From: Gammaproteobacteria bacterium
Lineage (GTDB): Bacteria; Pseudomonadota; Gammaproteobacteria; SZUA-152
Direction of reading: 5' to 3'
Length of the DNA stretch: 41,196 bases
NCBI GenBank assembly: GCA_011371455.1
Contig: DRQN01000164.1
Location: 1 to 41,196 of the forward strand
Made by a program: the position numbers and the translations under genes. Positions 15,708 through 40,338 of this stretch are shown here, piece after piece. The notes below the pieces were generated by a model that was given only the letters and a program-made list of their open reading frames with translations, searched no databases and was not told where the DNA came from. Position 1 is the first letter of the stretch; each line of letters opens with the position of its first letter.

Positions 15708-16010
15708 TCAGGTCAGGGTGAACATCTTGTCCAGGTTGGAGATGGACAGCACCTTGCGCACCTCCGGGCTGCAGTTCTGCAGACGGATGTCGGCGGACGC
15801 CTCGCCGGCGAATTCGCGCAACAGCAGCAGCATACCCATGGCCGAGCTGTCCATGAAGGTGGTCTGGCTCAGGTCGATGACGAACCGGGTGTCGGGGGGC
15901 AGGTTCCGGTAGGCGTCACGGAACTCTGCATGCAGGCTGAAATCGAAGCGGCCGGCGATGATAATATCCAGCTGATCGCCTTCCTCGGAAAGCCGTGTCG
16001 TAATGCCCAT
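15708..16010 (-). CDS. STAS-domain protein (SpoIIAA-like anti-sigma-factor antagonist fold); last gene of the second che cluster
   Basis: 100 aa with a SpoIIAA-type motif (VIDLSQTTFMDSSAMGMLLLL) that retains the phosphorylatable Ser position. A double AAGGAG RBS lies upstream. Confidence 0.75.
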   Translation of the reverse strand: MGITTRLSEEGDQLDIIIAGRFDFSLHAEFRDAYRNLPPDTRFVIDLSQTTFMDSSAMGMLLLLREFAGEASADIRLQNCSPEVRKVLSISNLDKMFTLT

Positions 16011-16126: not shown

Positions 16127-17203
16127 TCAGCCTTTCAAGCGACGCAGAATGTGCTGCGGAATCCTGTTCAGCGAAAGCACGTCGTCCACGCAACCCAGCT
16201 TGACCGCCTCGCCCGGCATGCCCCACACCACGCTGCTCTTTTCGTCCTGGGCGATGGTTGGCGCGCCGGCCTCCTTCATTTCCAGCATGCCCCGCGCACC
16301 GTCGTCGCCCATGCCGGTCAGCAGCACGGCCATGGCGTTCGAGCCCACGTTCTGCGCCACCGAGCGGAACAGCACGTCCACCGAGGGTTTGTGCCGGTTG
16401 ACCGGCGGCCCGTCACTGAGCCGGCAGATGTAACGCGCGCCGTCCCGCTCCACCATCAGGTGCTGGCTGCCGGGGGCGATATAGGCATGACCGGTGACGA
16501 TCTGCTGCCCGTCCTCGGCCTCGCACACCGTCATCGCCGATATACCGTCCATGCGTCTGGCAAAGGGGGCGCTGAAGGCCTCGGGGATGTGCTGGGTGAT
16601 CACCGTCCCCGGGGTATCCGCCGGCAGGTGCATGAGCACTTCCTTGATGGCCTCGGTGCCGCCGGTGGAGGCGCCGATGGCGAGGATGCGATCGGTGGTG
16701 CGGAAATGGTGCGCCGGCGCCGCTTTACCGAGCACCGCATCGGCCGTGCGCCGCTCCGCCACCTCGCCGGCAGCGGACGGATTGCGCGCCAGGGCCTGCA
16801 CCCGCGCGCCGGCCGCCGTGCGCACCTTGGTGACGATCTCTTCGGCATAGTCGTCCAGGGTATGGGCGATGTCCGTCTTGGGCTTGGAAACGAAATCCAC
16901 CGCACCCAGTTCCAGCGCCTGAAAGGTGATATCCGCGCCCTTCTCGGTGAGGGTCGAGACCATCACCACCGGCATCGGGCGCAGGCGCATGAGATTGCGC
17001 AGGAAGGTGACGCCGTCCATGCGCGGCATCTCCACATCCAGGGTCAGCACGTCCGGGTTCAGCGACTTGATGCGCTCGCGCGCCACATAGGGATCCTGCG
17101 CGGTGCCGACCACCTCGATATCCGGGGCGGAATTCAGCATCTCGGTCAGCATCTGCCGCACCAGGGCGGAGTCGTCGACGATCAGAACCTTGATCTTTTT
17201 CAT
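16127..17203 (-). CDS. cheB: Chemotaxis methylesterase/deamidase CheB (receiver plus CheB_methylest domains)
   Basis: 358 aa with receiver motifs ([26 protein letters not shown]) and catalytic-domain blocks ([16 protein letters not shown]). Confidence 0.93.
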
Positions 17204-17215
17204 TTTCTTCCTTGC

Positions 17216-17863
17216 TCAGAACAGGTCGATTTCACCAGCTACCGGCTGCTGATCGATGGTCTTCATGTAGGCCGTTTCACGCTCGGCCACGGTACGGTTG
17301 TGCATGTTGCGCAGCTTTTTCACCCGCACCAGACCGGTATGGGGATGAAACAGCACCTTACGCGGATAGATATCACCCACGTCCTCGGCCACCAGCTTCA
17401 ACCCTTCGAGGCGCAGGTATTCCTCGACAAAATGGATGTTGCGCTCACCCACGTTGCTGCTCATGGTCTTGCTCAACACCTGGCCACCGCCGAAGATCTT
17501 GACCTCCAGGTTCTTGCGCGAACCGCCGTGTTTGAGGATCTCGTTGATCAGCAATTCCATGGCGTAATTGCCATAGCGGGTGGACAGGCCGCCGTCCGAG
17601 TCCCAGCTGCCGGTGCCGGACGACAATGGCAGCATGAAGTGATTCATGCCGCCGACCTTGAAGATGGGATCGCGCACGCAGGCCGAGACGCAGGAGCCCA
17701 GCACCGTCGTGATCACCTCATCCTCAGTGGTCACATAGACCTCGCCGGGCAGGATCTTGGCGGCGTACTTGTCGTTAGTCTTGTCCCAGTAGCGCTTGAT
17801 GCCCTCGAAGCCTTCCAGGGCCGGCGGCATGTCGATGGGGGCTTTTGTTTTCGGCAAGGCCAT
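17216..17863 (-). CDS. cheD: Chemoreceptor glutamine deamidase CheD
   Basis: 215 aa with the CheD signature TVLGSCVSACVRD...GGMNHFMLP. Confidence 0.9.
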   Translation of the reverse strand: MALPKTKAPIDMPPALEGFEGIKRYWDKTNDKYAAKILPGEVYVTTEDEVITTVLGSCVSACVRDPIFKVGGMNHFMLPLSSGTGSWDSDGGLSTRYGNYAMELLINEILKHGGSRKNLEVKIFGGGQVLSKTMSSNVGERNIHFVEEYLRLEGLKLVAEDVGDIYPRKVLFHPHTGLVRVKKLRNMHNRTVAERETAYMKTIDQQPVAGEIDLF

Positions 17864-17873
17864 GACGTCCCTC

Positions 17874-18740
17874 TCAATAGACTTTGCGGTAAATGGTTTT
17901 GCCTATCAGCTCGAAACGGTCACTGACCTTGAACAGGGATTCCGAGTGGCCGATGAAAAGATGCCCGCCCACCGGCAGCAGTTCGGCATAACGGTCGAAC
18001 AACACCTTCTGCGTCGGCTTGTCGAAATAGATCACCACGTTGCGGCAAAAGATAAAATCCAGCGGCCCGCTGATAGGCCATTCCTGCATCAGGTTCAGCT
18101 GGCGAAAAACGATCGGTTCACGCAGCGACGGTCGCACCTGCACCATGCCTTCGTTATCGCCCTTGCCGCGCAGGAACCAGCGCCGCAGACGCTCGGGAGA
18201 GATGCCATTGACCCGCTCCTGGGCATAGACGCCGCGCTGCGCCTTGGCCACCACGTCGGAATCCAGGTCGGTGGCGAGGAGGCGCGTGTCCCAGCCCTGC
18301 TCCGGCAGGGTCTCGCGCAGCACCATGGCGATGGAATAGGGCTCCTCACCGGTGGAACAACCCGCCGACCAGCAGCGCAGACGACGATCCGCCTTGCGCT
18401 GCATCAGTTCCGGCAACAGCGTGTCGCGCAGATATTCGAAGTGATGGTTCTCACGGAAGAACGAGGTCAGATTGGTGGTAATGGCATTGATGAAATTGAC
18501 CAGCTCGCCATCGTCCCCCGCCTTCAGCAACGCGCAGTAGTCGGCAAAGTGCTCCAGTCCCAACTGGCGCAGGCGCCGGCTGAGGCGGCTGTAAACCAGG
18601 TTGCGCTTGGCGTCGTTGAGCACGATACCGGTCTTTTCCGCCACCAGCCGGCGAATGAATTCAAAATCGGCATCGGTGAAGATGAACTCGCGCTCACCGC
18701 TCGAAACCCTTTCCTTGCGTGCCGCACTGGCCTGGGACAT
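17874..18740 (-). CDS. cheR: Chemotaxis methyltransferase CheR
   Basis: N-terminal helical domain plus SAM-binding domain (CWSAGCSTGEEPYSIAM, FCRNVVIYFD). I prefer the internal ATG at 18740 (MSQASAARKE), which has a GAGGAA RBS. The ORF-track start at 18785 would overlap the MCP gene by 16 nt. Confidence 0.9.
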   Translation of the reverse strand: MSQASAARKERVSSGEREFIFTDADFEFIRRLVAEKTGIVLNDAKRNLVYSRLSRRLRQLGLEHFADYCALLKAGDDGELVNFINAITTNLTSFFRENHHFEYLRDTLLPELMQRKADRRLRCWSAGCSTGEEPYSIAMVLRETLPEQGWDTRLLATDLDSDVVAKAQRGVYAQERVNGISPERLRRWFLRGKGDNEGMVQVRPSLREPIVFRQLNLMQEWPISGPLDFIFCRNVVIYFDKPTQKVLFDRYAELLPVGGHLFIGHSESLFKVSDRFELIGKTIYRKVY

Positions 18741-18769
18741 GGTCACTCGTTCCTCGTTCGTGGCGTGGC

Positions 18770-21298
18770 TCAGAATTCTTCCCACTCACCGTCGTCATCC
18801 ACCGCTGGACGTGGAGCCGGACGGGAAACCGCCGCGGGCCTCGCCGCTGGCCGGGGAGCGGGCGCGGGAGGGCTCTCCGCCTGCGGCTGCGGGGCCGGTG
18901 TGCGCGGCGCCGGCTGATGGCTCTCGTCGAGGCGGAAGAAGGCCATGCGCTGACTCATGTCGCGCGCCTGGTCGTCGAGGGACTCGGCGGCGGCCGCGGC
19001 CTCTTCCACCAGCGCCGCATTCTGCTGGGTCACCTCATCGAGCTGGGTGATGGCCTTGTTGATCTGCTCGATACCGATGGACTGCTCCTGGCTGGCGGCG
19101 GCGATCTCGGCGACGATGTCGCTGACCTTTTTCACCGAACCAACAATTTCCGTTAGCGTCTCGCCGGAGCGGTCCACCAGCTTGCTGCCCTCACCGACCT
19201 TTTCCACGCTGTCACTGATCAGCGACTTGATTTCCTTCGCCGCCGAGGCGCTGCGCTGGGCCAGGTTACGCACTTCGGAGGCCACCACCGCGAAGCCCCG
19301 GCCCTGCTCACCGGCGCGCGCCGCCTCCACCGCCGCATTCAGCGCCAGCAGGTTGGTCTGAAAGGCGATCTCGTCGATGACGCCGATGATGTCGGCAATC
19401 TTCTTGCTCGAACTGTTGATCTCGGCCATGGCATCCACTGCCTGTTGCACCACGCTGCCGCCCTGCTCCGCCTGGTCGCGAGCGCCATTGGCCAGTTGAT
19501 TGGCCTGACGCGCGTTGTCGGCGTTCTGCTTCACCGTCGAGGTCAGCTGCTCCATGCTGGAGGCGGTCTCCTCCAGCGAGGAAGCCTGTTCCTCGGTGCG
19601 CTGACTGAGGTCGGTATTGCCCTGGGATATCTCGCTGGCCGCCGACGTAATGCTCTCGGTGGCGACACGAATGCCGCCCACGGTCTCTTGCAGATTCTTG
19701 ACCGAGGTATTGACCGCATCACTCAACACCGCGAACTCACCCTGATAGTCACTACGGGCCAGTTGCGTCAGATCGCCCTCGGCGAGGCGGGTCATGACGC
19801 TGGAGATATCAGTGATCGGTTCGACGATGGCGTCCAACATGCTGTTTATGCCTTCGCCGAGGGTGCGGATGAAGCCTTGATAGCTCTCCACGTCCAGCCG
19901 CTGACCCAGATCGCCACGGGCGGCGGCGGCAATCATCTCCGCCAGCGCCCGTTCGGCCGCCTTCTGCTCGGTGATGTCGCGCCACTCCACCATATTGCCC
20001 ATGTACTTGCCCTGACCGTCGAGCACCGCCGTGGCATTGACCTCGAATTCCAGGTCCGCCACCTTGATCTCGGCCCTGGCCGGCAGGCGCGAGGGGTCAC
20101 CCAGCAGGGCTCGCTGATGAGCGGGGTTCTTGTGGAACATGTCGATATTCTTGCCCACCAGATTGTGCGCATCGAAACCGGGGAAGCGTTCGCGCAGCAC
20201 CTCCTGACGCGCCGCCATCATCTTTACCACCGCCGGATTGACGTAGGTGATATTGAGATCTTCGTCACACAGCATGAGATTGGACTGGGCGCCATCGATG
20301 GCCGACTGCAGGCGCTCCACCTCACGCGCCGCTTTGCGTTCCTCGGTAACGTCTTTCCACTGCACGGCATAGCCCAGGTGGCGGCCGCTGGCGTCGGTGA
20401 GGGGGCGGGTCTGGTGTTCGAAGATGAACCGACCGGGGGTGATCTCGCCGTGGCGCACGTCGTCCGGACCCATGGCGTGGAGGATGCGTTTAATCGCCTC
20501 GGGGTCCTTGTGATAACGATGGATGCTGCCACCCACCACCGAGTCGACGCTGAAGCCGGGCAGATACTGGGCCAGCTCATCTTCCACCGAGGTCAGGGTA
20601 TCGCGCGCCTGTTTGTTGATAAAAACAATATTCTCGTCAGCGTCGGCGATCATGATATTGATGGGCGAATGTTCGAGGATCGAATACATCGCTTCCAGGC
20701 TGTTGAGGGCCTCGCTCGTGCCCATCACCGATTCCATTGCTTTCTTGCTTGCTGCCATCGTCTTCTCCTCCAGGACTTCGTCCGCCGACAGCATGGTGGC
20801 CGCCACGGTATTCAATGCATCACGCCAGGCACCCGCAACCTCATCGGTCCACAGATCACCGGCAAACTCCGCCATCACGTCGAGCAGCGTCTCCGCCACC
20901 GCCGTGTAGTGTTCTCTTTTCGCCCCATAGGCATGGTGTTTTTCACCCAGGCCCAGCAGGGCCTTGCGCAGCTGCGCCGGCTTGCGCAGGCTGTTGACCA
21001 CCAGCTGCAGGGCCGCCAGCAGCTTTTTCTGCTGCTGCGCCGGATCGGCATTGGCGAACAAGGGCCGCACCTCGGGGAAACGTACGAACAATTCTTCGTA
21101 AAAGCGCGCCACCAGGGCCTCGCCCTGCGGCGCCAGGGCGGCAAAGGTCTCTTCCAGCAGGGCAACCGCAAGGCCGTCGCTCTTACGCCGCCGGCGACGA
21201 GGTGCAGACTTCTTCTCCACCAGCGGCTCGACCGGCGCCTCCTCCTTCATCCAGGCCAGCGGGTCAGCCCCTATGGGTGATTTCTTGCGTGTTGCCAT
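18770..21298 (-). CDS. Soluble methyl-accepting chemotaxis protein: basic N-terminal peptide, globin, PAS, PAS, HAMP, MA domain, Pro-rich tether and C-terminal EWEEF pentapeptide (Aer2/McpB-like position)
   Basis: 842 aa with no hydrophobic TM-length segment. The globin region [16 protein letters not shown]...[10 protein letters not shown] resembles Vitreoscilla Hb (FYKNLFAKHPEVRPLF...). Two PAS-like modules carry SIHRYHKDP and [13 protein letters not shown]. The MA signalling core is [35 protein letters not shown]. The C-terminus reads ...[12 protein letters not shown]. Confidence 0.92.
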
Positions 21299-21341: not shown

Positions 21342-21479
21342 TTTGCCACTGAGACACAGAGGACACAGAGCAGAAAATCCCATGAGAAGATACGGGACAC
21401 TTGTGTCATCGGATGCGAGAAAAACATCGGCACTTTATCCATAAGTTTTTCTCCGTGTCCTCTGTGTCTCTGTGGCAAA
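21342..21479. repeat. 138-bp inverted-repeat (MITE/REP-like) element, family 'TTTGCCACAGAG', copy 1
   Basis: The 29-nt arms TTTGCCACTGAGACACAGAGGACACAGAG (21342-21370) and CTCCGTGTCCTCTGTGTCTCTGTGGCAAA (21451-21479) are complementary at 27/29 positions. The element fills the parA-like/MCP intergenic gap. Confidence 0.7.
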
Positions 21480-21549: not shown

Positions 21550-22329
21550 TCAGTGCCATTGCGCGGCCACCATTTCCTCGGCCAGGCGGCGATAGTCTTC
21601 GGCGCCGTGGCTATCGTCCTGGTATTCAAAAATGGTTTCTCCAAAACTGGGGCATTCGGCCAGCGCCACGTTTTCACGGATCGCGGTGTCCAGCAGGCGT
21701 CCCTGGAAATACTCTGCGAGACGCTCGCGCACCTCGCGGGCCAGGCGGCGCTGGGCGTGAAAACGGGTCATCACCACCCGCCGCGGCAAGGGCCGGCGCA
21801 GGGTTTCTTCGACGAAACTCAGGGTCTCCATGAAACGCGACAGGCTGTGCAGGGCCAGGTAGTCGCTGGACACGGGGATCAACAATTCGCTGGCGGCGAA
21901 AAGGGCATTCATACCCAGCAGGCCGGCCGAGGGCGGGCAGTCGATGATCACCGCATCGTAGTGTTCGCCGCAGGCATCGAGGGCGGTGCGCAGGCGCATG
22001 CCGCGCGCCTTGCCGCCTTCGCTGAGGTGTTCGACATTGGCCAGGCCGCGACCGGCGGGCACCAGGTCGAGACCGTCACGGGCACGCAGCCGGTAATCGG
22101 CCAGCGGCGCGCCCTCGAGCAGCACCACGTCCATGCCCGGGCTGGCCGCATCGGCGCCCAGGGCGGTGGTGAGATGGGCCTGGGGATCGAGATCCAGTGC
22201 CAGCACCCGCTGCCGGCCCAGCGCCAGAGCGTGGGCAAGGTTGACGGCGGTGGTGGTCTTGCCCACCCCGCCCTTCTGGTTCATGACCGCGATCACCCGG
22301 CTGACCACATCATTCGTGCCCGACGGCAT
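21550..22329 (-). CDS. ParA/Soj-family ATPase embedded in the che operon (PpfA/ParC-like candidate)
   Basis: 259 aa with a deviant Walker A (MNQKGGVGKTTTAVNLA) and the motifs LDLDPQ and IIDCPPS. Its start overlaps the cheW stop by 20 nt. Confidence 0.85.
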   Translation of the reverse strand: MPSGTNDVVSRVIAVMNQKGGVGKTTTAVNLAHALALGRQRVLALDLDPQAHLTTALGADAASPGMDVVLLEGAPLADYRLRARDGLDLVPAGRGLANVEHLSEGGKARGMRLRTALDACGEHYDAVIIDCPPSAGLLGMNALFAASELLIPVSSDYLALHSLSRFMETLSFVEETLRRPLPRRVVMTRFHAQRRLAREVRERLAEYFQGRLLDTAIRENVALAECPSFGETIFEYQDDSHGAEDYRRLAEEMVAAQWH

Positions 22330-22837
22330 GGTCCATCACCGCCAGCTCGCCGCTGTTGAGCAGGTGATCGATGTCGAGAATGATCACCATGGTTTCATTC
22401 ACCGTGGCCAGGCCCTCGACGAAGTCCACATTGACCACACTGCCGAAATCCGGCGCCGGCTTGAGCGATTCATCCTGCACGTTGTAGACATCGGACACCG
22501 CATCCACCACGATGCCCATCACCCGGCTCTTGTCCTCACGCATCACCTTGAGCACGATCACCACGGTCATGGGTCCGTACTCCACCGGCTCCAGGCCGAA
22601 ACGGCGGCGCAGGTCGATGATCGGCACGATGGTGCCGCGCAGGTTGATCACGCCGCGGATGTAATCCGGGGTATTGGGAATCGGCGTGACCGCATTCCAG
22701 CCCTTGATCTCCTGCACCCGCAGGATGTCCACGCCGTATTCTTCGCCGGCGAGAAGAAAGGTAAGAAACTGGCTGCCATCGACTTCACCGGTGCCGGCCA
22801 GCCCGCTGGCGATCTGTTCTGCTACGTCCATCTGCAA
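22310..22837 (-). CDS. cheW: Chemotaxis coupling protein CheW
   Basis: 175-aa CheW domain (FLTFLLAGEEYGVDILRVQEI...GVINLRGTIVPIIDLR). Confidence 0.93.
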   Translation of the reverse strand: MQMDVAEQIASGLAGTGEVDGSQFLTFLLAGEEYGVDILRVQEIKGWNAVTPIPNTPDYIRGVINLRGTIVPIIDLRRRFGLEPVEYGPMTVVIVLKVMREDKSRVMGIVVDAVSDVYNVQDESLKPAPDFGSVVNVDFVEGLATVNETMVIILDIDHLLNSGELAVMDHAVGHE

Positions 22838-22870: not shown

Positions 22871-23155
22871 TATTAACCCGGCGACAATATAGATTATGTT
22901 CAGCCGTCGTGTGCCGCTGCGCAGCAAGGCATCAAAGCGCAGCTGTAGTGGGCCTACCGCAAGCTTTGATAACGCAGTCTGCGCAGCGGCACACGACGGC
23001 CTTTCATCATGAAAACAATCGGTTAGGGACTTCAAGCGTCCCCCAGCTCTGCGTTGTCACTCTTGCCAATGGAACCACCATTGCCGGCGAGTGACGCCTT
23101 GATCTGGAGAACGCTTGAAGTCCTGAACATGATCTATATTGTCGCCGGGTTAATA
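22871..23155. mobile_element. 285-bp non-coding MITE-like insertion at the cheA/cheW junction
   Basis: The 33-bp terminal inverted repeats (22871-22903 and 23123-23155) have one mismatch. Flanking direct repeats are TTAAGCCGCACTGTT (22856-22870) and TTAAGCCGCAGCGCTGTT (23156-23173), i.e. the last codons and stop of cheA are duplicated. Inside are two long hairpins: 22903-23000 with a perfect 22-bp stem, and 23027-23123 with a 13-bp outer stem plus inner stems. Confidence 0.7.
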
Positions 23156-25246
23156 TTAAGCCGCAGCGCTGTTCGCGCGCTTGTGACCGCCGTTCTGCGA
23201 CAGTTCGATGATGCCGCCGATATCGACGATCAGCGCCACCGTGCCATCGCCGAGGATGGTGGCGCCGGAGATGCCGCCCACCTTCTTGAAATTGGTTTCC
23301 AGACTCTTGATCACGACTTGCTGTTGGGCCAGCAGGTCGTCCACCAGCAAGCCGGCCTGTTGGCCGTGCCCTTCCACCACCACCAGCAGACCGTCTTCCA
23401 GGTTGGTGCTGTCCGGCTTGAGGCCGAAGGCGTCGTAGAGACGGATGATGGGCAGGTAGTCGTCGCGCAGTTTGTACAGTTCGGCGCTGCCGGCGATGGC
23501 ATTGACCCGCACCGGTTCCACCTGCAGGGATTCGATGATGGAGACCAGCGGGATGATGAAGGTCTGCTCGCCCACGCGCACCAGCTGGCCGTCGAGTATG
23601 GCCAGGGTCAGGGGCAGGCGAATGGTGAACGTGGAGCCATTGCCCGGACGCGACTCCACGTCGATGGCGCCGCCCAGGGCGGTGATGTTGCGCTTCACCA
23701 CGTCCATGCCAACGCCACGCCCGGACACGTCGCTGACCACCTCGGCGGTGGAAAAGCCGGGCTGGAACAGAAAGTCGAACACCTCGGCGTCGCTGAGATT
23801 GTCACCGCCGCTGGTGAGGCCACGCTCGATGGCCTTGGCGAGGATACGCTCGCGGTTCAGGCCCGCACCGTCGTCGCTGATCTCGATAAGGATGTTGCCG
23901 CCCTGGTGATAGGCATTGAGGTGCACCGTGCCGGTCTCCGGCTTGCCGGCCTGGAGGCGCGCCTCGGGGGTCTCGATGCCATGATCGACGGCGTTGCGCA
24001 CCAGGTGCACCAGCGGGTCGCCGATCTTTTCCATCACCGTCTTGTCCAGCTCGGTCTGCTCGCCGGACATCTTCAATTCGATCTTCTTGCCCAGCTTGCC
24101 GCACAGGTCGTGCACCATGCGCGGGAAGCGATTGAAGGCGAAGCTGATGGGCAGCATGCGGATGCTCATGACGTTTTCCTGCAGCTCACGCGTATTGCGC
24201 TCCAGCTCCGCCAGGCCGTCCTTGAGGCGCTCCACCTTGTCCATGCTGAAATCCTCACCCAGCTGACCTAACATGGATTGGGTGATCACCAGTTCGCCTA
24301 CCAGATTGATCAGGGCGTCCACCTTGTCGATGCCGACACGAATGGAGGAATTCTCGGAGGAAGCGCGGTTCTTGCGCCGCTCGCCCTGGCGGCGATCGCC
24401 CCTGCTGCGGCGTTCCCCGGCCTCGGGCGCGGCCTGCAGCGGCGCAGGGCTGGCGGCTTGCGCCGGGCCATCCGCTGCGGCTTCCGGCGCAGGCGTTTCC
24501 GATGCCGGGATTTCCGCCGCCACCGCGCCATCTCCACCGAGGGGCACGATACTCAGTTCACAATCGCCATCCACCCACTCGAACACTTCGTCGATCTGCT
24601 CGCGGTCGATCTCACCATGCAGGGCAAGCGTCCAGCTCAGGCAGGCCTCCTCGGGTTCCATGTCCACCAGCGCGGGCAGGCCTTCCAGATCCACCTCCAC
24701 CTTCATCTCGCCCATCTCGTCCAGTTCGCGGAACAGGCGCACCACGTCATTGCCGGAGCGCAGCATGTCGGGAAAGGGCTTGAAAACGATCTGCCAGCCG
24801 CTGGCCGCCGTGGCATCGTCCTGCGCCTCCGGCCCGGCCTCGGCCGCTGCCTGCGCCACCGAGCCCAGCATGCGGTCCAGCCCGGCCTTGACCTCGGCGA
24901 CCTGATCGAGATTGATCTCGAAACCTTCCTGGGCGCCGGCCAGCATGTCGCGGATGCAGTCCACGGACTTCAGAAACAGGTCGATGGCCTCCTGGGTGAC
25001 CTCGCGCTCGCCGGCGCGGATCTGGTCCAACAGGGTTTCGACGACGTGGGTAAAATTGCTGATGTCACTGAAGCCAAAGGTAGCGCTGCCGCCCTTGATG
25101 GAATGCGCGGCGCGAAAGATGTTGTCCACTTCCTCGGCGTCGGCCGCACCGGGCTGCATTTCCAGCAGCACCGACTCCATAATGTCCAGTCCCTCAAGGC
25201 TTTCCTCGATGAAGGTGGCCTTGAACTGTTCCATATCGATGGACAT
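23156..25246 (-). CDS. cheA: Chemotaxis histidine kinase CheA (second, Che2-type copy)
   Basis: 696 aa. It has an HPt domain (FRAAHSIKGGSATFGF), a long Ala/Pro/Arg-rich linker with no obvious P2 domain, a P3/HATPase region (HLVRNAVDHGIE, DDGAGL, GRGVGMDVV) and a CheW-like P5 domain. Confidence 0.93.
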   Translation of the reverse strand: MSIDMEQFKATFIEESLEGLDIMESVLLEMQPGAADAEEVDNIFRAAHSIKGGSATFGFSDISNFTHVVETLLDQIRAGEREVTQEAIDLFLKSVDCIRDMLAGAQEGFEINLDQVAEVKAGLDRMLGSVAQAAAEAGPEAQDDATAASGWQIVFKPFPDMLRSGNDVVRLFRELDEMGEMKVEVDLEGLPALVDMEPEEACLSWTLALHGEIDREQIDEVFEWVDGDCELSIVPLGGDGAVAAEIPASETPAPEAAADGPAQAASPAPLQAAPEAGERRSRGDRRQGERRKNRASSENSSIRVGIDKVDALINLVGELVITQSMLGQLGEDFSMDKVERLKDGLAELERNTRELQENVMSIRMLPISFAFNRFPRMVHDLCGKLGKKIELKMSGEQTELDKTVMEKIGDPLVHLVRNAVDHGIETPEARLQAGKPETGTVHLNAYHQGGNILIEISDDGAGLNRERILAKAIERGLTSGGDNLSDAEVFDFLFQPGFSTAEVVSDVSGRGVGMDVVKRNITALGGAIDVESRPGNGSTFTIRLPLTLAILDGQLVRVGEQTFIIPLVSIIESLQVEPVRVNAIAGSAELYKLRDDYLPIIRLYDAFGLKPDSTNLEDGLLVVVEGHGQQAGLLVDDLLAQQQVVIKSLETNFKKVGGISGATILGDGTVALIVDIGGIIELSQNGGHKRANSAAA

Positions 25247-25311: not shown

Positions 25312-25755
25312 CTAGCCGAAAAAACTGCCCAGCGCCTTTTTCAACCAGCCTTTCTTTCTACCAAGAACCTCGTTGGCGTATGGCACATAGTGGCGATCTT
25401 CATTCTTGATGTGGTTGGTCAGCCAGATCTGTAATTCGGACATGAGCTTGCGGGTGACATCCTGCCCCCTTTCATGCTCTTTCTTATAGTTCTGGATATG
25501 CGCGATAAAAGACTCGTGCACTTTTTTGTGCGAGTCGGAAAGCGGGTAGCCCGCCTGAGCCATCAGATCTTCTTCAAAGGCAAAATGGGTCACGGTGTAA
25601 TCAACCAGCCCCATCAAAATCTGCGTCACCTTGTCGTGATCATGATTGCTGTGAGCATCGTGCAATTCATTGATGTAATCCACGATGCGCCGGTGCTGCC
25701 CATCGATCACGTCGATACCGATCGACAGCGAGGAATCCCAGACCCAATAACTCAT
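25312..25755 (-). CDS. Bacteriohemerythrin (single-domain, O2-binding di-iron protein)
   Basis: 147 aa. It starts WDSSLSIGIDVIDGQHRRIV and shows the His/Glu/Asp ligand pattern (H..., HFAFEE, HKKVHESF, NHIKNEDRHY). GC content is visibly lower: about 47-48% in two 60-nt lines I counted, against about 62% in a cheA line. Confidence 0.85.
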   Translation of the reverse strand: MSYWVWDSSLSIGIDVIDGQHRRIVDYINELHDAHSNHDHDKVTQILMGLVDYTVTHFAFEEDLMAQAGYPLSDSHKKVHESFIAHIQNYKKEHERGQDVTRKLMSELQIWLTNHIKNEDRHYVPYANEVLGRKKGWLKKALGSFFG

Positions 25756-25818: not shown

Positions 25819-26181
25819 CTACCCCACGACTTTCTTGATGGTCGCCAGCAATTGTTCCGGATTGAAGGGTTTTACGATCCATCCGGTTGCGCCGGCGGCC
25901 TTGCCTTCCTGTTTTTTGCCCATGCCACCCTCGGTGGTCAACATCAGGATCGGGGTGAACTTGAAGGCCGGCAGGGCGCGCAGTTCGCGCGCCAGGGTGA
26001 TGCCGTCCATGCGCGGCATGTTGACGTCCGAAAGCACCAGGTCGAAGCGCTGCCGCTTGGCCAGATCCAGGGCCGCCTGGCCGTCCGCCGCCTCCGTGAC
26101 CTGATGTCCGGCGCCCCTGAGGGTAAACACCACCATCTGCCGCATCGAGGCGGAATCATCCACCGCTAGAATATTCGCCAT
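25819..26181 (-). CDS. cheY: CheY-like response regulator (second che cluster)
   Basis: 120 aa counted from the internal ATG (MANILAVDDSASMRQ), which has an AGGAGA RBS 7 nt upstream. Receiver motifs are DLVLSDVNMPRMDG and WIVKPF. The longer ORF-track start at 26286 overlaps the upstream gene and has no support. Confidence 0.9.
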   Translation of the reverse strand: MANILAVDDSASMRQMVVFTLRGAGHQVTEAADGQAALDLAKRQRFDLVLSDVNMPRMDGITLARELRALPAFKFTPILMLTTEGGMGKKQEGKAAGATGWIVKPFNPEQLLATIKKVVG

Positions 26182-26198
26182 TTTTTCGTCTCCTGCGC

Positions 26199-26516
26199 CT
26201 AGGCTGCTTTCATCTTCAATGCCAGTATGTCCGCGATGCCCAGCAGCTCCGCAGCACGGCTGAGCGCCGCCGATACGGATGACCACTGCACGTCGATATC
26301 CTGTGAGCGTGCGTCCTGAAAGAACGCCGCCAGCACCTGCAAGGCCGCCGTATCCGCGCGCTCGACGGCGCCGCCGTCCAGGGTCACGGGTTGTTTGGCC
26401 TCCAGCGCTTCGAGCAGATGCGCGCGCAATTCACCCGCCACGGCGATGTCCAGCATCTCGTCGCAGACGATATGGCTCACCGTTTCCGCTTCATTCTCTG
26501 AGGTTTCGTCACTCAC
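26199..26516 (-). CDS. Small STAS-like protein; first gene of the second che cluster (start uncertain)
   Basis: The C-terminal ~85 aa look like a short STAS/MlaB-type domain (LDIAVAGELRAHLLEAL...VTLDGGAVERADTAALQVLAAFF...IDVQW). The ORF-track N-terminus reads through a REP palindrome and the sigma-28 promoter. I therefore use the GTG at 26516; the ATG at 26456 is an alternative. Confidence 0.55.
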   Translation of the reverse strand: MSDETSENEAETVSHIVCDEMLDIAVAGELRAHLLEALEAKQPVTLDGGAVERADTAALQVLAAFFQDARSQDIDVQWSSVSAALSRAAELLGIADILALKMKAA

Positions 26517-26560: not shown

Positions 26561-26586
26561 TATCGGCAATGGTTTTTAATGCTTTA
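26561..26586 (-). promoter_or_regulatory. Sigma-28 (FliA) promoter for the STAS-cheY-hemerythrin-cheA... operon
   Basis: The minus strand reads cTAAAG-cattaaaaaccatt-GCCGATAG, i.e. TAAA-N15-GCCGATAg against the consensus TAAA-N15-GCCGATAA. It lies about 45 nt upstream of the GTG at 26516. Confidence 0.6.
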
Positions 26587-40230: not shown

Positions 40231-40338
40231 TTTGCCACAGAGGCACAGAGGCACAGAGCACACAGAGGAAAATATTGTGGTTTACTCTGACCTGAATCCG
40301 TGGGTTCAGGCCTGAGTTCTCTGTGCCTCTGTGGCAAA
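40231..40338. repeat. 108-bp inverted-repeat element, family 'TTTGCCACAGAG', copy 2, with a nested REP palindrome (40291-40310)
   Basis: Perfect 20-bp arms: TTTGCCACAGAGGCACAGAG (40231-40250) and CTCTGTGCCTCTGTGGCAAA (40319-40338). An exact CCTGAATCCGTGGGTTCAGG lies between them. Confidence 0.75.

What the first reader, a model, noticed from the sequence alone, without database searches (positions are those of the whole stretch)
18770..21298. Soluble chemoreceptor fusing a Vitreoscilla-type globin to tandem PAS domains, ending in an EWEEF tether pentapeptide
Residues ~45-170 align by eye with single-domain bacterial haemoglobin: [16 protein letters not shown] against VHb FYKNLFAKHPEVRPLF, with a candidate proximal His in [10 protein letters not shown] against VHb AVKHCQAGV. 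Classical globin-coupled receptors (HemAT) use the distinct sensor-globin fold, so an Hb/flavohaemoglobin-like globin on an MCP is unusual.

Two PAS modules follow, with the repeated motifs SIHRYHKDP and [13 protein letters not shown]. Aer2-type receptors bind haem b through a PAS histidine, so these may be additional haem sites.

The protein ends with a ~45-aa Pro/Ala-rich tether and EWEEF. P. aeruginosa McpB/Aer2 ends in GWEEF, which recruits CheR2 specifically.
Basis: partly seen in the sequence, partly recalled or inferred. Interest (0 to 1): 0.65.

Follow-up and report, generated by a model that had tools for sequence, protein, structure and literature searches.

The report
Haemoglobin-capped soluble Aer2 oxygen receptor
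This gene from a hydrothermal-vent bacterium encodes a soluble chemotaxis receptor of the known Aer2 oxygen-sensing type, carrying an extra flavohaemoglobin-like globin and a short N-terminal peptide that tracks a neighbouring ParA-like ATPase; the family is widespread, and I found no paper describing it.

Summary
ORF 18770-21298 (-) encodes an 842-aa protein with no membrane segment.

**Domain order**
- A basic N-terminal peptide.
- A Pfam Globin (PF00042) domain, with no protoglobin match. It is closest to flavohaemoglobin, Vitreoscilla haemoglobin and Hell's Gate globin.
- Two Aer2-type PAS-haem domains.
- A di-HAMP unit and a 36H signalling domain.
- A 48-aa Pro/Ala-rich linker ending in EWEEF.

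**Residues and context**
- The haem-pocket residues are invariant in 60-105 relatives: globin Tyr67, Phe81, Gln89 and His121, and PAS1 His263 and Trp314. PAS2 His389 and Trp439 are kept in at least 90%.
- The gene sits in an F7/Che2-type operon.
- The adjacent CheR has the longer beta-subdomain of pentapeptide-dependent CheRs.

- At least 203 protein clusters share the globin and nearly all listed ones the architecture; relatives occur in 124 species genomes.
- Relatives carry the same globin inside CheA, on CheW, or in tandem.
- The motif KKxxMGxDPLAWM co-occurs almost perfectly with a ParA-like gene (51/1/0/19).

**Most likely function**
It is a three-haem oxygen (gas) receptor. PAS2 drives the kinase and PAS1 modulates it. 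The flexibly tethered globin tunes or protects the response. A ParA-type ATPase positions the array. Haem binding is untested.

I class it as a new variant of a known kind.

The parts
18770..21298 (-). Whole receptor gene, 842 aa plus stop. Soluble Aer2-type chemoreceptor with an N-terminal globin.
   Evidence: No TM segment.
21239..21298 (-). N-terminal peptide, residues 1-20 ([20 protein letters not shown]). Proposed docking or activating peptide for the ParA-like ATPase.
   Evidence: The motif is conserved in about 75 of 105 family members. It co-occurs with a ParA-like gene in 51 loci, against 1/0/19 in the other classes. It is disordered in the model.
21179..21214 (-). Arg/Lys-rich stretch, residues 29-40 ([12 protein letters not shown]), ahead of the globin.
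   Evidence: There are 12 K/R in the first 44 residues. A basic stretch is conserved in relatives, although its sequence varies.
20774..21169 (-). Flavohaemoglobin/VHb-type globin domain, residues 44-175. Key residues: Tyr67 (B10), Phe81 (CD1), Gln89 (E7), Leu93 (E11), His121 (F8, codon 20936-20938), Tyr131 (G5), Asp173 (H23).
   Evidence: Pfam PF00042, PDB alignments, invariant residues, pLDDT 83-93, and a fold match to 3S1I with TM 0.90.
20705..20773 (-). Globin-to-PAS1 linker, residues 176-198. Low-confidence and non-helical, but contains invariant Met181.
20324..20704 (-). PAS1, residues 199-325. Aer2-type PAS-haem domain with His263 and Trp314.
   Evidence: Pfam PAS_4 at 208-321. 29% identical to PAS2, E 1e-20, with His and Trp aligned. 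His263 and Trp314 are invariant in 60 relatives.
19934..20323 (-). PAS2, residues 326-455. Aer2-core PAS-haem domain with His389 (= PaAer2 His234) and Trp439 (= PaAer2 Trp283).
   Evidence: Matches 3VOL, 6CEQ and 4HI4. Fold match to 6CEQ with TM 0.88. His389 and Trp439 are kept in at least 90% of the family.
19664..19933 (-). di-HAMP unit, residues 456-545.
   Evidence: Pfam HAMP_2 at 473-536 and HAMP at 491-538. The alignment to the PaAer2 PAS-HAMP structure 3VOL runs through to residue ~537.
18929..19663 (-). 36H kinase-control (MCP signalling) module, residues 546-790. Methylation-site equivalents are E570, E577, Q584 and E766.
   Evidence: MCPsignal E 2.8e-56. Gapless alignment to E. coli Tsr 262-524. 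Site mapping.
18788..18928 (-). Pro/Ala-rich flexible linker, residues 791-837.
   Evidence: Composition. pLDDT below 50.
18773..18787 (-). C-terminal pentapeptide EWEEF, residues 838-842. Proposed CheR/CheB tether.
   Evidence: xWxxF ends about 105 of 121 sequences held (the query plus 120 listed hits), and EWEEF ends 69 of them.
17874..18785 (-). cheR, overlapping the receptor's 3' end. CheR with a pentapeptide-dependent-type beta-subdomain.
   Evidence: Pfam CheR_N and CheR. Gapless alignment to Salmonella CheR 1AF7/1BC5, whereas P. aeruginosa CheR1 is 3 residues shorter in that region.
21550..22329 (-). ParA/MinD-family ATPase gene with a deviant Walker A (KGGVGKT), immediately upstream of the receptor. 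It overlaps the 3' end of cheW.
   Evidence: A ParA-like gene is present in 50 of 78 receptor loci.
22310..22837 (-). cheW
23156..25246 (-). cheA (Hpt, dimerisation, HATPase and CheW-like domains).
17216..17863 (-). cheD
16127..17203 (-). cheB
25312..25755 (-). Single-domain hemerythrin gene between cheY and cheA.
   Evidence: Pfam PF01814, E 4.8e-19.
25819..26286 (-). cheY. The receiver domain lies at residues 39-150 of the listed ORF, so the true start is probably internal.

Best explanation
The gene encodes a soluble, homodimeric aerotaxis (gas) receptor of the Aer2/McpB family. It works in a Che2/F7-type chemosensory operon of an uncultured hydrothermal-vent gammaproteobacterium.

Shown from sequence:
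- It has the complete 'Aer2 core': a PAS-haem domain (PAS2, His389/Trp439) joined by a helix to a di-HAMP unit and a 36H kinase-control module.
- A second Aer2-type PAS-haem domain (PAS1, His263/Trp314) lies upstream.
- A flavohaemoglobin/VHb-type globin lies further upstream, with an intact haem pocket: His121 F8, Tyr67 B10, Gln89 E7, Phe81 CD1.
- It carries a C-terminal disordered tether ending in EWEEF and a conserved basic N-terminal peptide.

Inferred mechanism:
1. O2 binds the PAS2 haem and is stabilised by Trp439. The change passes through the di-HAMP unit to the signalling tip and alters CheA activity.
2. PAS1 modulates PAS2, as in the V. cholerae and V. vulnificus receptors.
3. The globin is a third haem site on a flexible linker of about 25 residues. 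It most likely acts as a high-affinity modulator or accessory, tuning or protecting the O2 response, and not as the primary transmitter.
4. CheR, and more weakly CheB, dock on EWEEF and adapt the receptor at E570, E577, Q584 and E766, with CheD as deamidase.
5. The N-terminal peptide [17 protein letters not shown] engages the neighbouring ParA-like ATPase to position or partition the receptor array, in the manner of PpfA-TlpT or ParC-ParP.
For: Domain identities:
- Pfam and NCBIfam assignments.
- PDB sequence matches to FHP, VHb, HGbI, PaAer2 3VOL, VcAer2 6CEQ and Tsr.
- Fold matches of the AF2 model: TM 0.90 to HGbI, 0.88 to VcAer2 PAS and 0.83 to Tsr.

Haem residues:
- They map exactly onto PaAer2 His234 and Trp283.
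- They are invariant or at least 90% conserved in 60-105 homologues.

36H class: gapless alignment to Tsr 262-524.

In-line helices: the model has continuous helices joining PAS1 to PAS2 (318-335) and PAS2 to HAMP (443-460). The globin-to-PAS1 link (176-198) has pLDDT below 50.

Operon:
- The order is cheY-hemerythrin-cheA-cheW-parA-like-receptor-cheR-cheD-cheB, flanked by STAS genes.
- This resembles the stage-1 F7 layout of PMC7184735.
- 62-73 of 78 related loci keep cheA, cheW, cheR, cheD and cheB.

Tether:
- xWxxF ends about 105 of 121 sequences held.
- CheR has the beta-subdomain length of Salmonella CheR, while P. aeruginosa CheR1 is 3 residues shorter.
- GWEEF binds CheR2 and CheB2 in P. 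aeruginosa (PMC7698151).

ParA link:
- Motif and ParA-like gene co-occur 51/1/0/19 (Fisher p 2e-16).
- The motif always opens the ORF just downstream of parA-like. That ORF is the receptor in 39 loci and a STAS protein in 12.
- Short positively charged N-terminal extensions are the general activators of ParA/MinD ATPases, TlpT-PpfA included (PMC7993993, PMC5706961).

Accessory role of the globin: the same globin clade is inserted in CheA, fused to CheW, found stand-alone, and repeated 2-6 times on receptors.

Multi-PAS precedent: in VvAer2 the HAMP-proximal PAS signals and the upstream PAS modulates (PMC10107281).
Against: - Nothing is experimentally tested. Haem incorporation, ligand specificity, CheR binding and ParA interaction are all inferred.
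- The NCBIfam Aer2 equivalog model scores 754.8 bits, below its 1200-bit cut-off, and covers only model positions 256-804.
- The FHb His-Tyr-Glu proximal triad is incomplete. H23 is Asp here and Tyr in about half the family.
- Two of the three Salmonella CheR positions I recall, from memory, as contacting the pentapeptide differ here (Q182 to R, R197 to Q; R187 is kept).
- The low-confidence globin-PAS1 linker could be a modelling failure and not real flexibility. It contains an invariant Met181 of unknown role.
- The co-occurrence statistic is not corrected for phylogeny, and most loci come from related gammaproteobacterial MAGs.
- The biological output of ancestral-type F7 systems is unknown even in P. 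aeruginosa (PMC7184735, PMC6739360).
- I could not check whether this genome has a second (F6) system, because the genome search was shut.
Confidence: 0.62

Rival explanations
1. The globin is an array-resident enzyme or buffer with no signalling role. It would be an NO dioxygenase that keeps NO off the PAS haems, or a local O2 store. Selection would act only on co-localisation with the chemosensory array.
For: - The Tyr-B10/Gln-E7 pocket resembles those of flavohaemoglobins and VHb-type single-domain globins, which PMC3820574 treats as NO dioxygenases. The link from this pocket to that activity is my inference.
- The link to PAS1 is flexible.
- The same globin is fused to CheW, inserted in the CheA linker, found stand-alone in the operon, and repeated 2-6 times. 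This pattern needs only tethering, not allosteric coupling.
- From memory, PaAer2 haem also binds NO and CO.
Against: - There is no reductase domain or obvious reductase gene in the operon.
- H23 Glu is not conserved.
- The position at the receptor's N-terminal tip is where other Aer2 receptors carry modulatory domains (PMC10107281).
- A conserved junction motif with invariant Met181 hints at a specific contact.
Confidence: 0.22
2. The globin is the primary in-line gas sensor, functionally like HemAT. Its ligand state would be transmitted through PAS1 and PAS2, which would serve mainly as transducers.
For: - The globin sits at the N-terminal sensor position and has an invariant haem pocket.
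- Globin-coupled MCPs such as HemAT work this way (PMC13401364).
Against: - Both PAS domains keep the complete Aer2 haem/O2 residues.
- In characterised Aer2 receptors the HAMP-proximal PAS is sufficient for O2 signalling (PMC10107281).
- No continuous helix links the globin to PAS1 in the model.
- Fusions to CheA and CheW cannot signal in line.
Confidence: 0.1
3. The globin no longer binds haem. It would serve only as a dimerisation or scaffolding cap, like the non-haem globin of RsbR or the tri-HAMP scaffold of PaAer2.
For: - Non-haem globins exist in signalling proteins (PMC8717448).
- The N-terminal domains of Aer2 receptors can be scaffolds (PMC10107281).
Against: - Proximal His F8, Phe CD1, Tyr B10 and Gln E7 are invariant in 105 of 105 aligned sequences.
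- The domain scores well above the Pfam haem-globin threshold.
Confidence: 0.04

Closest known systems
P. aeruginosa Aer2/McpB (PA0176), with structures 3VOL, 4HI4, 3LNR and 4I3M
   Same: - Soluble 36H receptor in a Che2/F7 operon, followed by cheR-cheD-cheB.
- PAS-haem domain with the same His and Trp, joined to a di-HAMP unit (E 2e-45 over PAS plus HAMPs).
- xWEEF pentapeptide on a disordered linker.
   Different: - PaAer2 has an N-terminal tri-HAMP stack and one PAS domain. This protein has a globin and two PAS domains, and no N-terminal HAMPs.
- As I recall its layout, the P. aeruginosa cluster has no ParA-like gene (not checked here).
- The tail is EWEEF, not GWEEF.
V. cholerae Aer2 (VCA1092, dual PAS-haem, 6CEQ) and V. 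vulnificus Aer2 (tri-PAS-haem, PMC10107281)
   Same: - Tandem Aer2-type PAS-haem domains upstream of a di-HAMP unit and a 36H module.
- It is the best NCBIfam hit (NF041847, E 1e-226).
- The model of upstream PAS as modulator and proximal PAS as signaller carries over directly.
   Different: - Neither Vibrio receptor has a globin or the N-terminal ParA-linked peptide.
- The score is below the equivalog cut-off (754.8 against 1200).
HemAT and other globin-coupled sensors (S-family, protoglobin PF11563)
   Same: An N-terminal haem globin on a soluble MCP, proposed to sense O2 directly.
   Different: - The globin belongs to a different family. This one is F/M-type (PF00042), with no PF11563 match.
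- HemAT joins globin to the signalling domain directly. Here two PAS-haem domains and a di-HAMP unit intervene, and the link is flexible.
Single-domain and flavohaemoglobin globins: Vitreoscilla Hb (1VHB), C. necator FHP (1CQX), Hell's Gate globin I (3S1I)
   Same: - 3-on-3 fold (TM 0.90 to 3S1I).
- Tyr B10, Phe CD1, Gln E7, Leu E11, His F8 and Tyr G5 are all kept.
   Different: - Those are free-standing or fused to an FAD/NAD reductase, not to signalling domains.
- H23 Glu is Asp here and variable in the family.
HGbRL of Methylacidiphilum infernorum, a globin fused to a Roadblock/LC7 domain (3WFW, PMC4476040)
   Same: An F-type globin fused to a putative signalling domain. It is among the PDB sequence hits (E 1.6e-12).
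   Different: - The output domain is different.
- The HGbRL globin has a site-swapped fold with Lys-His hexacoordination.
- It has no chemotaxis context.
Corallococcus coralloides Cc_4972 (in silico, PMC6194562)
   Same: A predicted cytoplasmic MCP that combines a globin with a PAS domain.
   Different: - Its globin is a truncated (T-family) Bac_globin, PF01152.
- It sits in a different gene cluster and is reported in only seven proteins.
PpfA-TlpT of Rhodobacter sphaeroides and ParC-ParP of Vibrio
   Same: - A ParA-like ATPase encoded in a che cluster.
- The partner is an array component that engages the ATPase through its N-terminus.
- A short basic N-terminal extension is the general ATPase-activating element (PMC7993993, PMC5706961).
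   Different: - The motif GxDPLAW is not reported in the papers I read.
- Here it sits on an Aer2-type receptor or, in relatives, on a STAS protein.
- Whether positioning is over the nucleoid or at the pole is unknown.

Membership tests
Aer2/McpB-like chemoreceptors (Aer2 core; PMC10107281, PMC7184735) | PAS-haem domain with the E-eta His haem ligand and the I-beta Trp O2-stabiliser, connected directly to a di-HAMP unit. | tested here: met
   PAS2 plus the HAMPs align to 3VOL with E 2e-45. His389 and Trp439 align to His234 and Trp283. Pfam HAMP_2 is hit.
Aer2/McpB-like chemoreceptors (Aer2 core; PMC10107281, PMC7184735) | 36H heptad class signalling domain. | tested here: met
   263-residue gapless alignment to E. 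coli Tsr 262-524. The alignment to T. maritima 2CH7 spans 28 more residues in that chain.
Aer2/McpB-like chemoreceptors (Aer2 core; PMC10107281, PMC7184735) | No transmembrane or periplasmic domain. | tested here: met
   Maximum 19-residue hydropathy is 1.26. The AF2 model has no TM helix.
Aer2/McpB-like chemoreceptors (Aer2 core; PMC10107281, PMC7184735) | C-terminal pentapeptide x[HFYW]xx[HFYW]. | tested here: met
   EWEEF at residues 838-842.
Aer2/McpB-like chemoreceptors (Aer2 core; PMC10107281, PMC7184735) | Encoded in an F7-type cluster (cheY, cheA, cheW, aer2, cheR, cheD, cheB, STAS genes). | tested here: met
   There is only one cheW, plus a ParA-like gene and a hemerythrin. No mcpA-like gene was seen among the ORFs I checked in the window.
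Aer2/McpB-like chemoreceptors (Aer2 core; PMC10107281, PMC7184735) | NCBIfam equivalog NF041847 (Vibrio Aer2) trusted cut-off. | tested here: not met
   754.8 bits against a cut-off of 1200. The match covers model positions 256-804. It is therefore not a Vibrio-Aer2 equivalog, which is expected for a different N-terminal architecture.
Aer2/McpB-like chemoreceptors (Aer2 core; PMC10107281, PMC7184735) | Binds b-type haem and signals in response to O2. | not testable with these tools
   Needs expression, spectroscopy and a hijack assay.
F/M-family globins (flavohaemoglobin and VHb-like; Pfam PF00042) | Profile match above the gathering threshold and a 3-on-3 helical fold. | tested here: met
   51.4 bits against 22. 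TM 0.90 and rmsd 1.1 A to 3S1I.
F/M-family globins (flavohaemoglobin and VHb-like; Pfam PF00042) | Proximal His F8, Phe CD1, and distal Tyr B10 and Gln E7. | tested here: met
   His121, Phe81, Tyr67 and Gln89 align to VHb His85, Phe43, Tyr29 and Gln53. They are invariant in 105 sequences.
F/M-family globins (flavohaemoglobin and VHb-like; Pfam PF00042) | Proximal His F8 - Tyr G5 - Glu H23 triad of flavohaemoglobins. | tested here: inconclusive
   Tyr131 (G5) is invariant. H23 is Asp173 here, and Tyr (52), Glu (15) or Asp (10) in the family.
Globin-coupled sensors sensu stricto (S family, HemAT type) | Sensor globin / protoglobin domain (PF11563). | tested here: not met
   There is no PF11563 hit at E<=1. 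No HemAT appears in the 74 PDB sequence hits or the top 50 fold hits. The protein works like a GCS in outline but is not a member.
Pentapeptide-tethered CheR adaptation system | xWxxF at the extreme C-terminus, on an unstructured linker of about 30 residues or more. | tested here: met
   48-residue Pro/Ala-rich linker with pLDDT below 50.
Pentapeptide-tethered CheR adaptation system | Cognate CheR with the longer (pentapeptide-dependent) beta-subdomain. | tested here: met
   RGKGDNEGMVQV aligns without gaps to Salmonella RGTGPHEGLVRV. P. aeruginosa CheR1 is 3 residues shorter there.
Pentapeptide-tethered CheR adaptation system | Salmonella CheR contact residues Q182, R187 and R197 (identity recalled from memory). 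| tested here: inconclusive
   R187 is kept. Q182 is Arg and R197 is Gln. This may co-vary with EWEEF against NWETF.
Pentapeptide-tethered CheR adaptation system | Measured peptide-CheR binding. | not testable with these tools
   Needs ITC.
ParA/MinD ATPase plus N-terminal activating-peptide partner (PpfA-TlpT or ParC-ParP type) | Deviant Walker A ATPase encoded in the che cluster. | tested here: met
   KGGVGKT is present, with AAA_31 and CbiA hits.
ParA/MinD ATPase plus N-terminal activating-peptide partner (PpfA-TlpT or ParC-ParP type) | Partner carries a short, positively charged, unstructured N-terminal extension. | tested here: met
   [17 protein letters not shown]. pLDDT is about 33 for residues 1-41.
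ParA/MinD ATPase plus N-terminal activating-peptide partner (PpfA-TlpT or ParC-ParP type) | Partner and ATPase are genetically linked across genomes. | tested here: met
   Counts of 51/1/0/19. The motif always lies on the ORF directly after parA-like.
ParA/MinD ATPase plus N-terminal activating-peptide partner (PpfA-TlpT or ParC-ParP type) | Peptide stimulates the ATPase and is needed for array positioning. | not testable with these tools
   Needs biochemistry and imaging.

The most novel reading that the evidence does not exclude
This globin clade is a dedicated, portable 'array globin'. It would be a flavohaemoglobin-type haem domain that vent and sediment sulfur-oxidising Gammaproteobacteria graft onto any core component of their F7 chemosensory array. 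The hosts seen are the Aer2 receptor (one to six copies), CheA and CheW.

The globin would add a second, much higher-affinity gas input, or an NO shield, to the PAS-haem sensors. That would give a band-pass or wide-range microaerotaxis response.

It travels together with a second portable module, the GxDPLAW peptide, which plugs the array into a ParA-type positioning ATPase.
Probability: 0.3. Interest if true: 0.8.

Novelty: new variant of a known kind. Interest (0 to 1): 0.6.

Why it matters
**For haem-sensor biology.** Reviews I read treat globin-coupled signalling as the business of the sensor (S) globin family, and treat flavohaemoglobin-type globins as enzymes or carriers (PMC7475203). 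Here an F-type globin is fused to a chemoreceptor in at least 203 protein clusters. In some species the same globin is fused to CheA or CheW. This would extend globin-coupled signalling to the F family.

**As an experimental system.** One polypeptide carries three haem sites of two unrelated folds. The contribution of each can be separated by three single His mutations in an established E. coli hijack assay.

**For chemotaxis.**
- The work defines a new N-terminal module of the 'Aer2 core'.
- It offers comparative-genomic evidence for a specific peptide, GxDPLAW preceded by Lys/Arg, as the handle by which a ParA-like ATPase grips a cytoplasmic F7 array.
- A cultured organism, Sulfuriflexus mobilis, carries the same operon, so the idea is directly testable.

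**Ecologically.** It points to elaborate O2 or NO navigation in chemolithoautotrophs living at steep redox gradients.

Tried and rejected
- **Second che system.** The genome search and the fetch from genomes were shut (notice). I could not ask whether the genome has a second (F6) chemosensory system or other globins.
- **Transcription.** No RNA runs hold the gene, so transcription is unverified. DNA runs show it only in hydrothermal-vent metagenomes.
- **Upstream small ORF.** I guessed that the 46-aa ORF just upstream of the receptor in L002 might be a detached copy of the N-terminal peptide. It is not. The motif is on the STAS protein after parA-like instead.
- **Regex error.** My first regular expression for counting globin domains matched nothing. 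I replaced it with phmmer-based counting.
- **Fold search.** The full-length fold search is dominated by the coiled-coil and PAS parts. The globin hits appear only from rank 33. A separate globin-only model was not needed.
- **Clade size.**
  - The representative-library search gives 438 clusters at E<=1e-30.
  - Its top hits are polyglobins with up to 14 matched globin stretches, some carrying cytochrome b5 domains and none of the four checked an MCP domain.
  - Their origin is unknown and their scores are summed over repeats, so I do not count them as family members. The figure of 438 is only a rough size.
- **Protoglobin.** Membership in the HemAT-type family was considered and rejected.
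- **Literature.** Searches for an F-type globin on a chemoreceptor, and for a ParA link to Aer2, found nothing. The held library lacks most subscription journals, so this is absence of evidence only.

Full report
**Observation.** The minus-strand ORF 18770..21298 is intact and encodes 842 residues.

Pfam finds these domains:
- Globin PF00042 at residues 65-169 (E 1.8e-13; 51.4 bits against a gathering score of 22).
- Two PAS domains, at about 204-321 and about 328-450.
- HAMP_2 and HAMP at 473-538.
- MCPsignal at 601-757 (E 2.8e-56).

No protoglobin (PF11563) match appears even at E<=1. The protein has no hydrophobic segment that could span a membrane.

**The globin.**
- *Closest solved proteins.* The N-terminal 200 residues find C. 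necator flavohaemoprotein (1CQX/3OZU, E 8e-14), Vitreoscilla haemoglobin (1VHB, E 1e-13), Hell's Gate globins and thermoglobin as their best solved relatives. No HemAT appears among the 74 hits. NCBIfam adds 'NO-inducible flavohemoprotein' over residues 46-180 (E 4.8e-21).
- *Haem pocket.* In the VHb alignment, Tyr67 = B10, Phe81 = CD1, Gln89 = E7, Leu93 = E11, His121 = F8 and Tyr131 = G5. Asp173 takes the place of Glu H23.
- *Conservation.* In 105 aligned family members, Tyr67, Phe81, Gln89, His121 and Tyr131 are invariant. Position H23 varies: Tyr 52, Glu 15, Asp 10.
- *Fold.* An AlphaFold2 model built on a 60-sequence alignment gives pLDDT 83-93 for the globin. It superposes on Hell's Gate globin I with TM 0.90 and rmsd 1.1 A.

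The domain is therefore an F/M-family 3-on-3 globin with an intact haem pocket, not the sensor-globin type.

**The PAS domains and the Aer2 core.**
- *Homology.* Residues about 326-537 align to the P. aeruginosa Aer2 PAS-HAMP structure 3VOL with E 2e-45. PAS2 aligns to V. cholerae Aer2 PAS (6CEQ) with E 4e-29.
- *Haem residues.* Counting along the printed 3VOL alignment places PaAer2 His234 on His389 (FHKNP) and Trp283 on Trp439 (VEWRD).
- *PAS1.* PAS1 is 29% identical to PAS2 (E 1e-20), with His263 and Trp314 in the same columns.
- *Conservation.* His263 and Trp314 are invariant, and His389 and Trp439 are at least 90% conserved, in 60 relatives.
- *Heptad class.* The kinase-control module aligns to E. 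coli Tsr residues 262-524 without a single gap. Its alignment to the T. maritima receptor 2CH7 spans 28 more residues in that chain. This places it in the 36H class.
- *Methylation sites.* The Tsr methylation positions map to E570, E577, Q584 and E766.

This is exactly the 'Aer2 core' defined by the Watts laboratory: an O2-sensing PAS-haem domain joined directly to a di-HAMP unit and a kinase-control domain. [quoted passage not shown] A globin is not among them (PMC10107281).

The best NCBIfam model is Vibrio Aer2 (E 1e-226). Its score is below the equivalog cut-off (754.8 against 1200), and the match covers only the C-terminal two thirds of the model.

**Operon.** The gene order on the minus strand is:
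- STAS (26199-26516)
- cheY
- hemerythrin (25312-25755)
- cheA
- cheW
- a ParA/MinD-family ATPase (21550-22329)
- the receptor
- cheR
- cheD
- cheB
- STAS (15708-16010)

Apart from the ParA-like and hemerythrin genes, this matches the 'stage 1' F7 cluster of Ortega et al. (PMC7184735). That paper also states that Aer2-like receptors are all 36H and usually carry the pentapeptide x[HFYW]xx[HFYW].

The cluster lies between fliK and fliL-fliM-fliP-flhA. A match to TAAAG-N14-GCCGATA lies 45 nt upstream of the first STAS gene, where 0.01 matches are expected by chance. This suggests, but does not show, co-regulation with late flagellar genes.

**The tether.**
- Residues 790-837 are Pro/Ala-rich and predicted disordered. 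EWEEF ends the protein.
- Among the 121 sequences held from the first search (the query plus 120 listed hits), about 105 end in xWxxF and 69 end in EWEEF.
- The adjacent CheR is most similar to Salmonella CheR (1AF7/1BC5, E 4e-68), the paradigm pentapeptide-binding enzyme.
- It aligns with Salmonella CheR without gaps through the beta-subdomain (RGKGDNEGMVQV against RGTGPHEGLVRV).
- P. aeruginosa CheR1 does not bind the McpB pentapeptide (PMC7698151) and is three residues shorter in that region.
- Arg187 is kept, but the positions equivalent to Gln182 and Arg197 differ. That these three are the Salmonella contact residues is my recollection and was not checked here.
- GWEEF binds CheR2 at 0.52 uM and CheB2 at 93 uM in P. 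aeruginosa (PMC7698151).

The tether reading is well supported by homology, but binding is untested.

**Distribution.**
- *Protein search.* A search with the globin part of the protein found 203 clusters (90% identity) at E<=0.001. Nearly all of the 120 listed carry Globin, PAS, HAMP_2 and MCPsignal.
- *Genome scan.* A scan of one genome per species found 124 genomes encoding a relative. Of the 80 loci kept, most are uncultured Gammaproteobacteria:
  - Chromatiales
  - Ectothiorhodospiraceae
  - Thiohalobacter
  - Thiogranum
  - Sulfuriflexus
  - Woeseiaceae
  - Methylophaga
  - A few bins carry labels from other phyla.
- *A cultured example.* The protein search also found the family in the cultured Sulfuriflexus mobilis (P0079).
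- *Operon context.* In 78 non-redundant receptor loci, the same-strand neighbours are cheW in 73, cheA in 72, cheR in 66, cheB in 63 and cheD in 62.
- *Architecture.* The usual form is one globin plus two or three PAS-haem domains, 31 loci each.
- *Source.* The window's own sequence is found in hydrothermal-vent metagenomes from several studies.

**Other globin fusions.** The same globin clade also occurs:
- inserted between the P1/P2 region and the dimerisation domain of CheA (four loci, for example L062 9197-11836);
- fused twice to the C-terminus of CheW (L075);
- as a stand-alone gene beside the receptor (L039);
- as two to six tandem copies on receptors (L062, L035, L081).

Such promiscuous, often flexibly linked fusion to any array component argues that what matters is putting the globin in the array, not a rigid allosteric connection.

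**Model geometry.** The AlphaFold model shows continuous helices from PAS1 to PAS2 (318-335) and from PAS2 to the HAMP unit (443-460). The globin-to-PAS1 segment (176-198) is low-confidence and non-helical, although it contains an invariant Met181.

**The N-terminal peptide and the ParA-like ATPase.**
- *Conservation.* The first 17 residues, [17 protein letters not shown], are conserved in most family members as [RK]KKxx[MIL]GxDPLAW[ML]. They are disordered in the model.
- *Relocation.* In relatives whose receptor starts directly with the globin, the ParA-like gene lies downstream of the receptor. The next gene there encodes a STAS protein whose N-terminus carries the same motif: KRTKKKSLIGIDPLAWM in L002 and L004, and NLIGVDPLAWL in L006.
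- *Absence.* A relative without any ParA-like gene (L005) has no motif.
- *Counts.* Across the informative species-level loci the counts are ParA+/motif+ 51, ParA+/motif- 1, ParA-/motif+ 0 and ParA-/motif- 19. Fisher p is 2e-16, not corrected for phylogeny.
- *Gene order.* The motif always opens the ORF immediately downstream of the ParA-like gene. That ORF is the receptor in 39 loci and another protein in 12. Each of these I checked by Pfam is a STAS protein.

Short, positively charged N-terminal extensions are the general activators of ParA/MinD ATPases. TlpT, the cytoplasmic receptor partner of PpfA in Rhodobacter sphaeroides, has one (PMC7993993). ParP uses an N-terminal domain to bind ParC, and that domain still works when moved to another core component (PMC5706961).

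I therefore read residues 1-20 as the handle by which the ParA-like ATPase positions or partitions this receptor's array. This is inference from comparative genomics. I had reached the idea before consulting earlier notes, where another first-stage note proposes the same pair.

**How it most likely works.** The receptor's identity as an Aer2-family protein with two PAS-haem sites and an F-type globin is close to certain.
1. By analogy with VcAer2 and VvAer2, the HAMP-proximal PAS2 is the signalling O2 sensor.
2. PAS1 modulates it (PMC10107281).
3. The globin is a third haem site, with odds of haem binding about 0.8. Its Tyr-B10/Gln-E7 pocket is shared with flavohaemoglobins and VHb-type globins. 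From general knowledge of such pockets, I expect tight O2 binding and possibly NO-dioxygenase chemistry.
4. I favour a tethered modulator or accessory role. This could be a widening or shifting of the O2 response range, or protection of the PAS haems from NO. I favour it over a HemAT-like primary-sensor role because of the flexible link and the CheA and CheW fusions.

I cannot separate 'modulator' from 'pure accessory enzyme or buffer' with sequence data.

**Comparison and novelty.**
- Tandem PAS-haem Aer2 receptors and the pentapeptide tether are known.
- Globin-coupled MCPs are known, but with S-family globins (HemAT).
- A truncated-globin plus PAS MCP was predicted in Corallococcus (PMC6194562).
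- Reviews list flavohaemoglobins as the only chimeric F-family globins (PMC7475203). One F-type globin fused to a Roadblock domain has been solved (PMC4476040, listed; its structure 3WFW is a hit).
- I found no paper describing an F-type globin on a chemoreceptor, CheA or CheW, or a ParA link to Aer2. The searchable library is incomplete.

My verdict is a new variant of a known kind, widespread in nature but not described in the literature I could search.

Noticed in passing
L062:9197-11836, L067:1157-3820, L071:4389-6884, L081:5087-7615: CheA proteins of related F7 operons carry the same globin. It is inserted between the Hpt/P2 region and the dimerisation domain. Pfam confirms Hpt, Globin, H-kinase_dim, HATPase_c and CheW domains in L062.
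   Followed up: partly
L075:8987-10393; proteins P0004, P0006, P0007, P0020, P0021: CheW proteins carry two or three C-terminal copies of the same globin. L039:9486-9926 is a stand-alone globin gene directly upstream of a globin-bearing receptor.
   Followed up: partly
L002:11233-11841, L004:11601-12146, L006:11626-12108, L032:14183-14665: In relatives where the ParA-like gene lies downstream of the receptor, the GxDPLAW peptide sits on the N-terminus of a STAS-domain protein, separated from the STAS fold by an acidic linker. This suggests that a STAS protein can bridge the array and the ATPase.
   Followed up: yes
Proteins P0069, P0085, P0090, P0106, P0115, P0116, P0118, P0121 (locus L005); window CheA residues ~277-293, nt ~24370-24420 (-): Several family members, including that of the ParA-less locus L005, carry a different N-terminal extension, LKGLERRTxxNRRKxxRRK. 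A similar ERR..DRR..ERR run (GERRSRGDRRQGERRKNR) sits in the P2-P3 linker of the window's CheA. This may be a direct nucleoid or nucleotide-binding tail. It is unexplained.
   Followed up: no
window 25312-25755 (-): A single-domain hemerythrin gene (Pfam E 4.8e-19) lies between cheY and cheA. It is a further candidate O2-binding (non-haem iron) protein in the same operon. It is found in only 6 of 78 related loci.
   Followed up: partly
window 26561-26586 (-): TAAAG-N14-GCCGATA, a sigma-28 (FliA)-like promoter match, lies 45 nt upstream of the first STAS gene of the operon. The expected chance count is 0.01. The whole che cluster sits between fliK and fliL.
   Followed up: partly
window 21342-21479 and 40242-40335: A 34-nt inverted repeat (88% complementary, arms 70 nt apart) fills much of the 251-nt spacer between the ParA-like gene and the receptor start. 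As RNA it folds at -67 kcal/mol, z -6.3. A second pair of the same terminal repeat (GCCACAGAGACACAGAGGACAC, 3 mismatches per arm) lies at 40242-40335. It is therefore a small dispersed palindromic element, MITE- or REP-like.
   Followed up: partly
window 22871-23155: A separate 33-nt inverted repeat pair (97% complementary, arms 219 nt apart) occupies the cheA-cheW spacer. It encloses two further inverted-repeat pairs, 22 nt (100% complementary) and 28 nt (82%).
   Followed up: no
Proteins P0127, P0128, P0130, P0131, P0135, P0137 (representative library): Giant polyglobins of 1,200-3,700 aa have 7-14 stretches matching this globin profile. Of the four I ran through Pfam (P0127, P0128, P0135, P0137), two end in cytochrome b5 domains and none has an MCP domain. 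Their origin and relation to the bacterial clade are unknown.
   Followed up: partly
window 28705-31602 (-) and 34771-37551 (-): A PAS-GGDEF-EAL protein (965 aa) and a multi-PAS hybrid histidine kinase (926 aa) flank the flagellar and che region. No further analysis was done.
   Followed up: no
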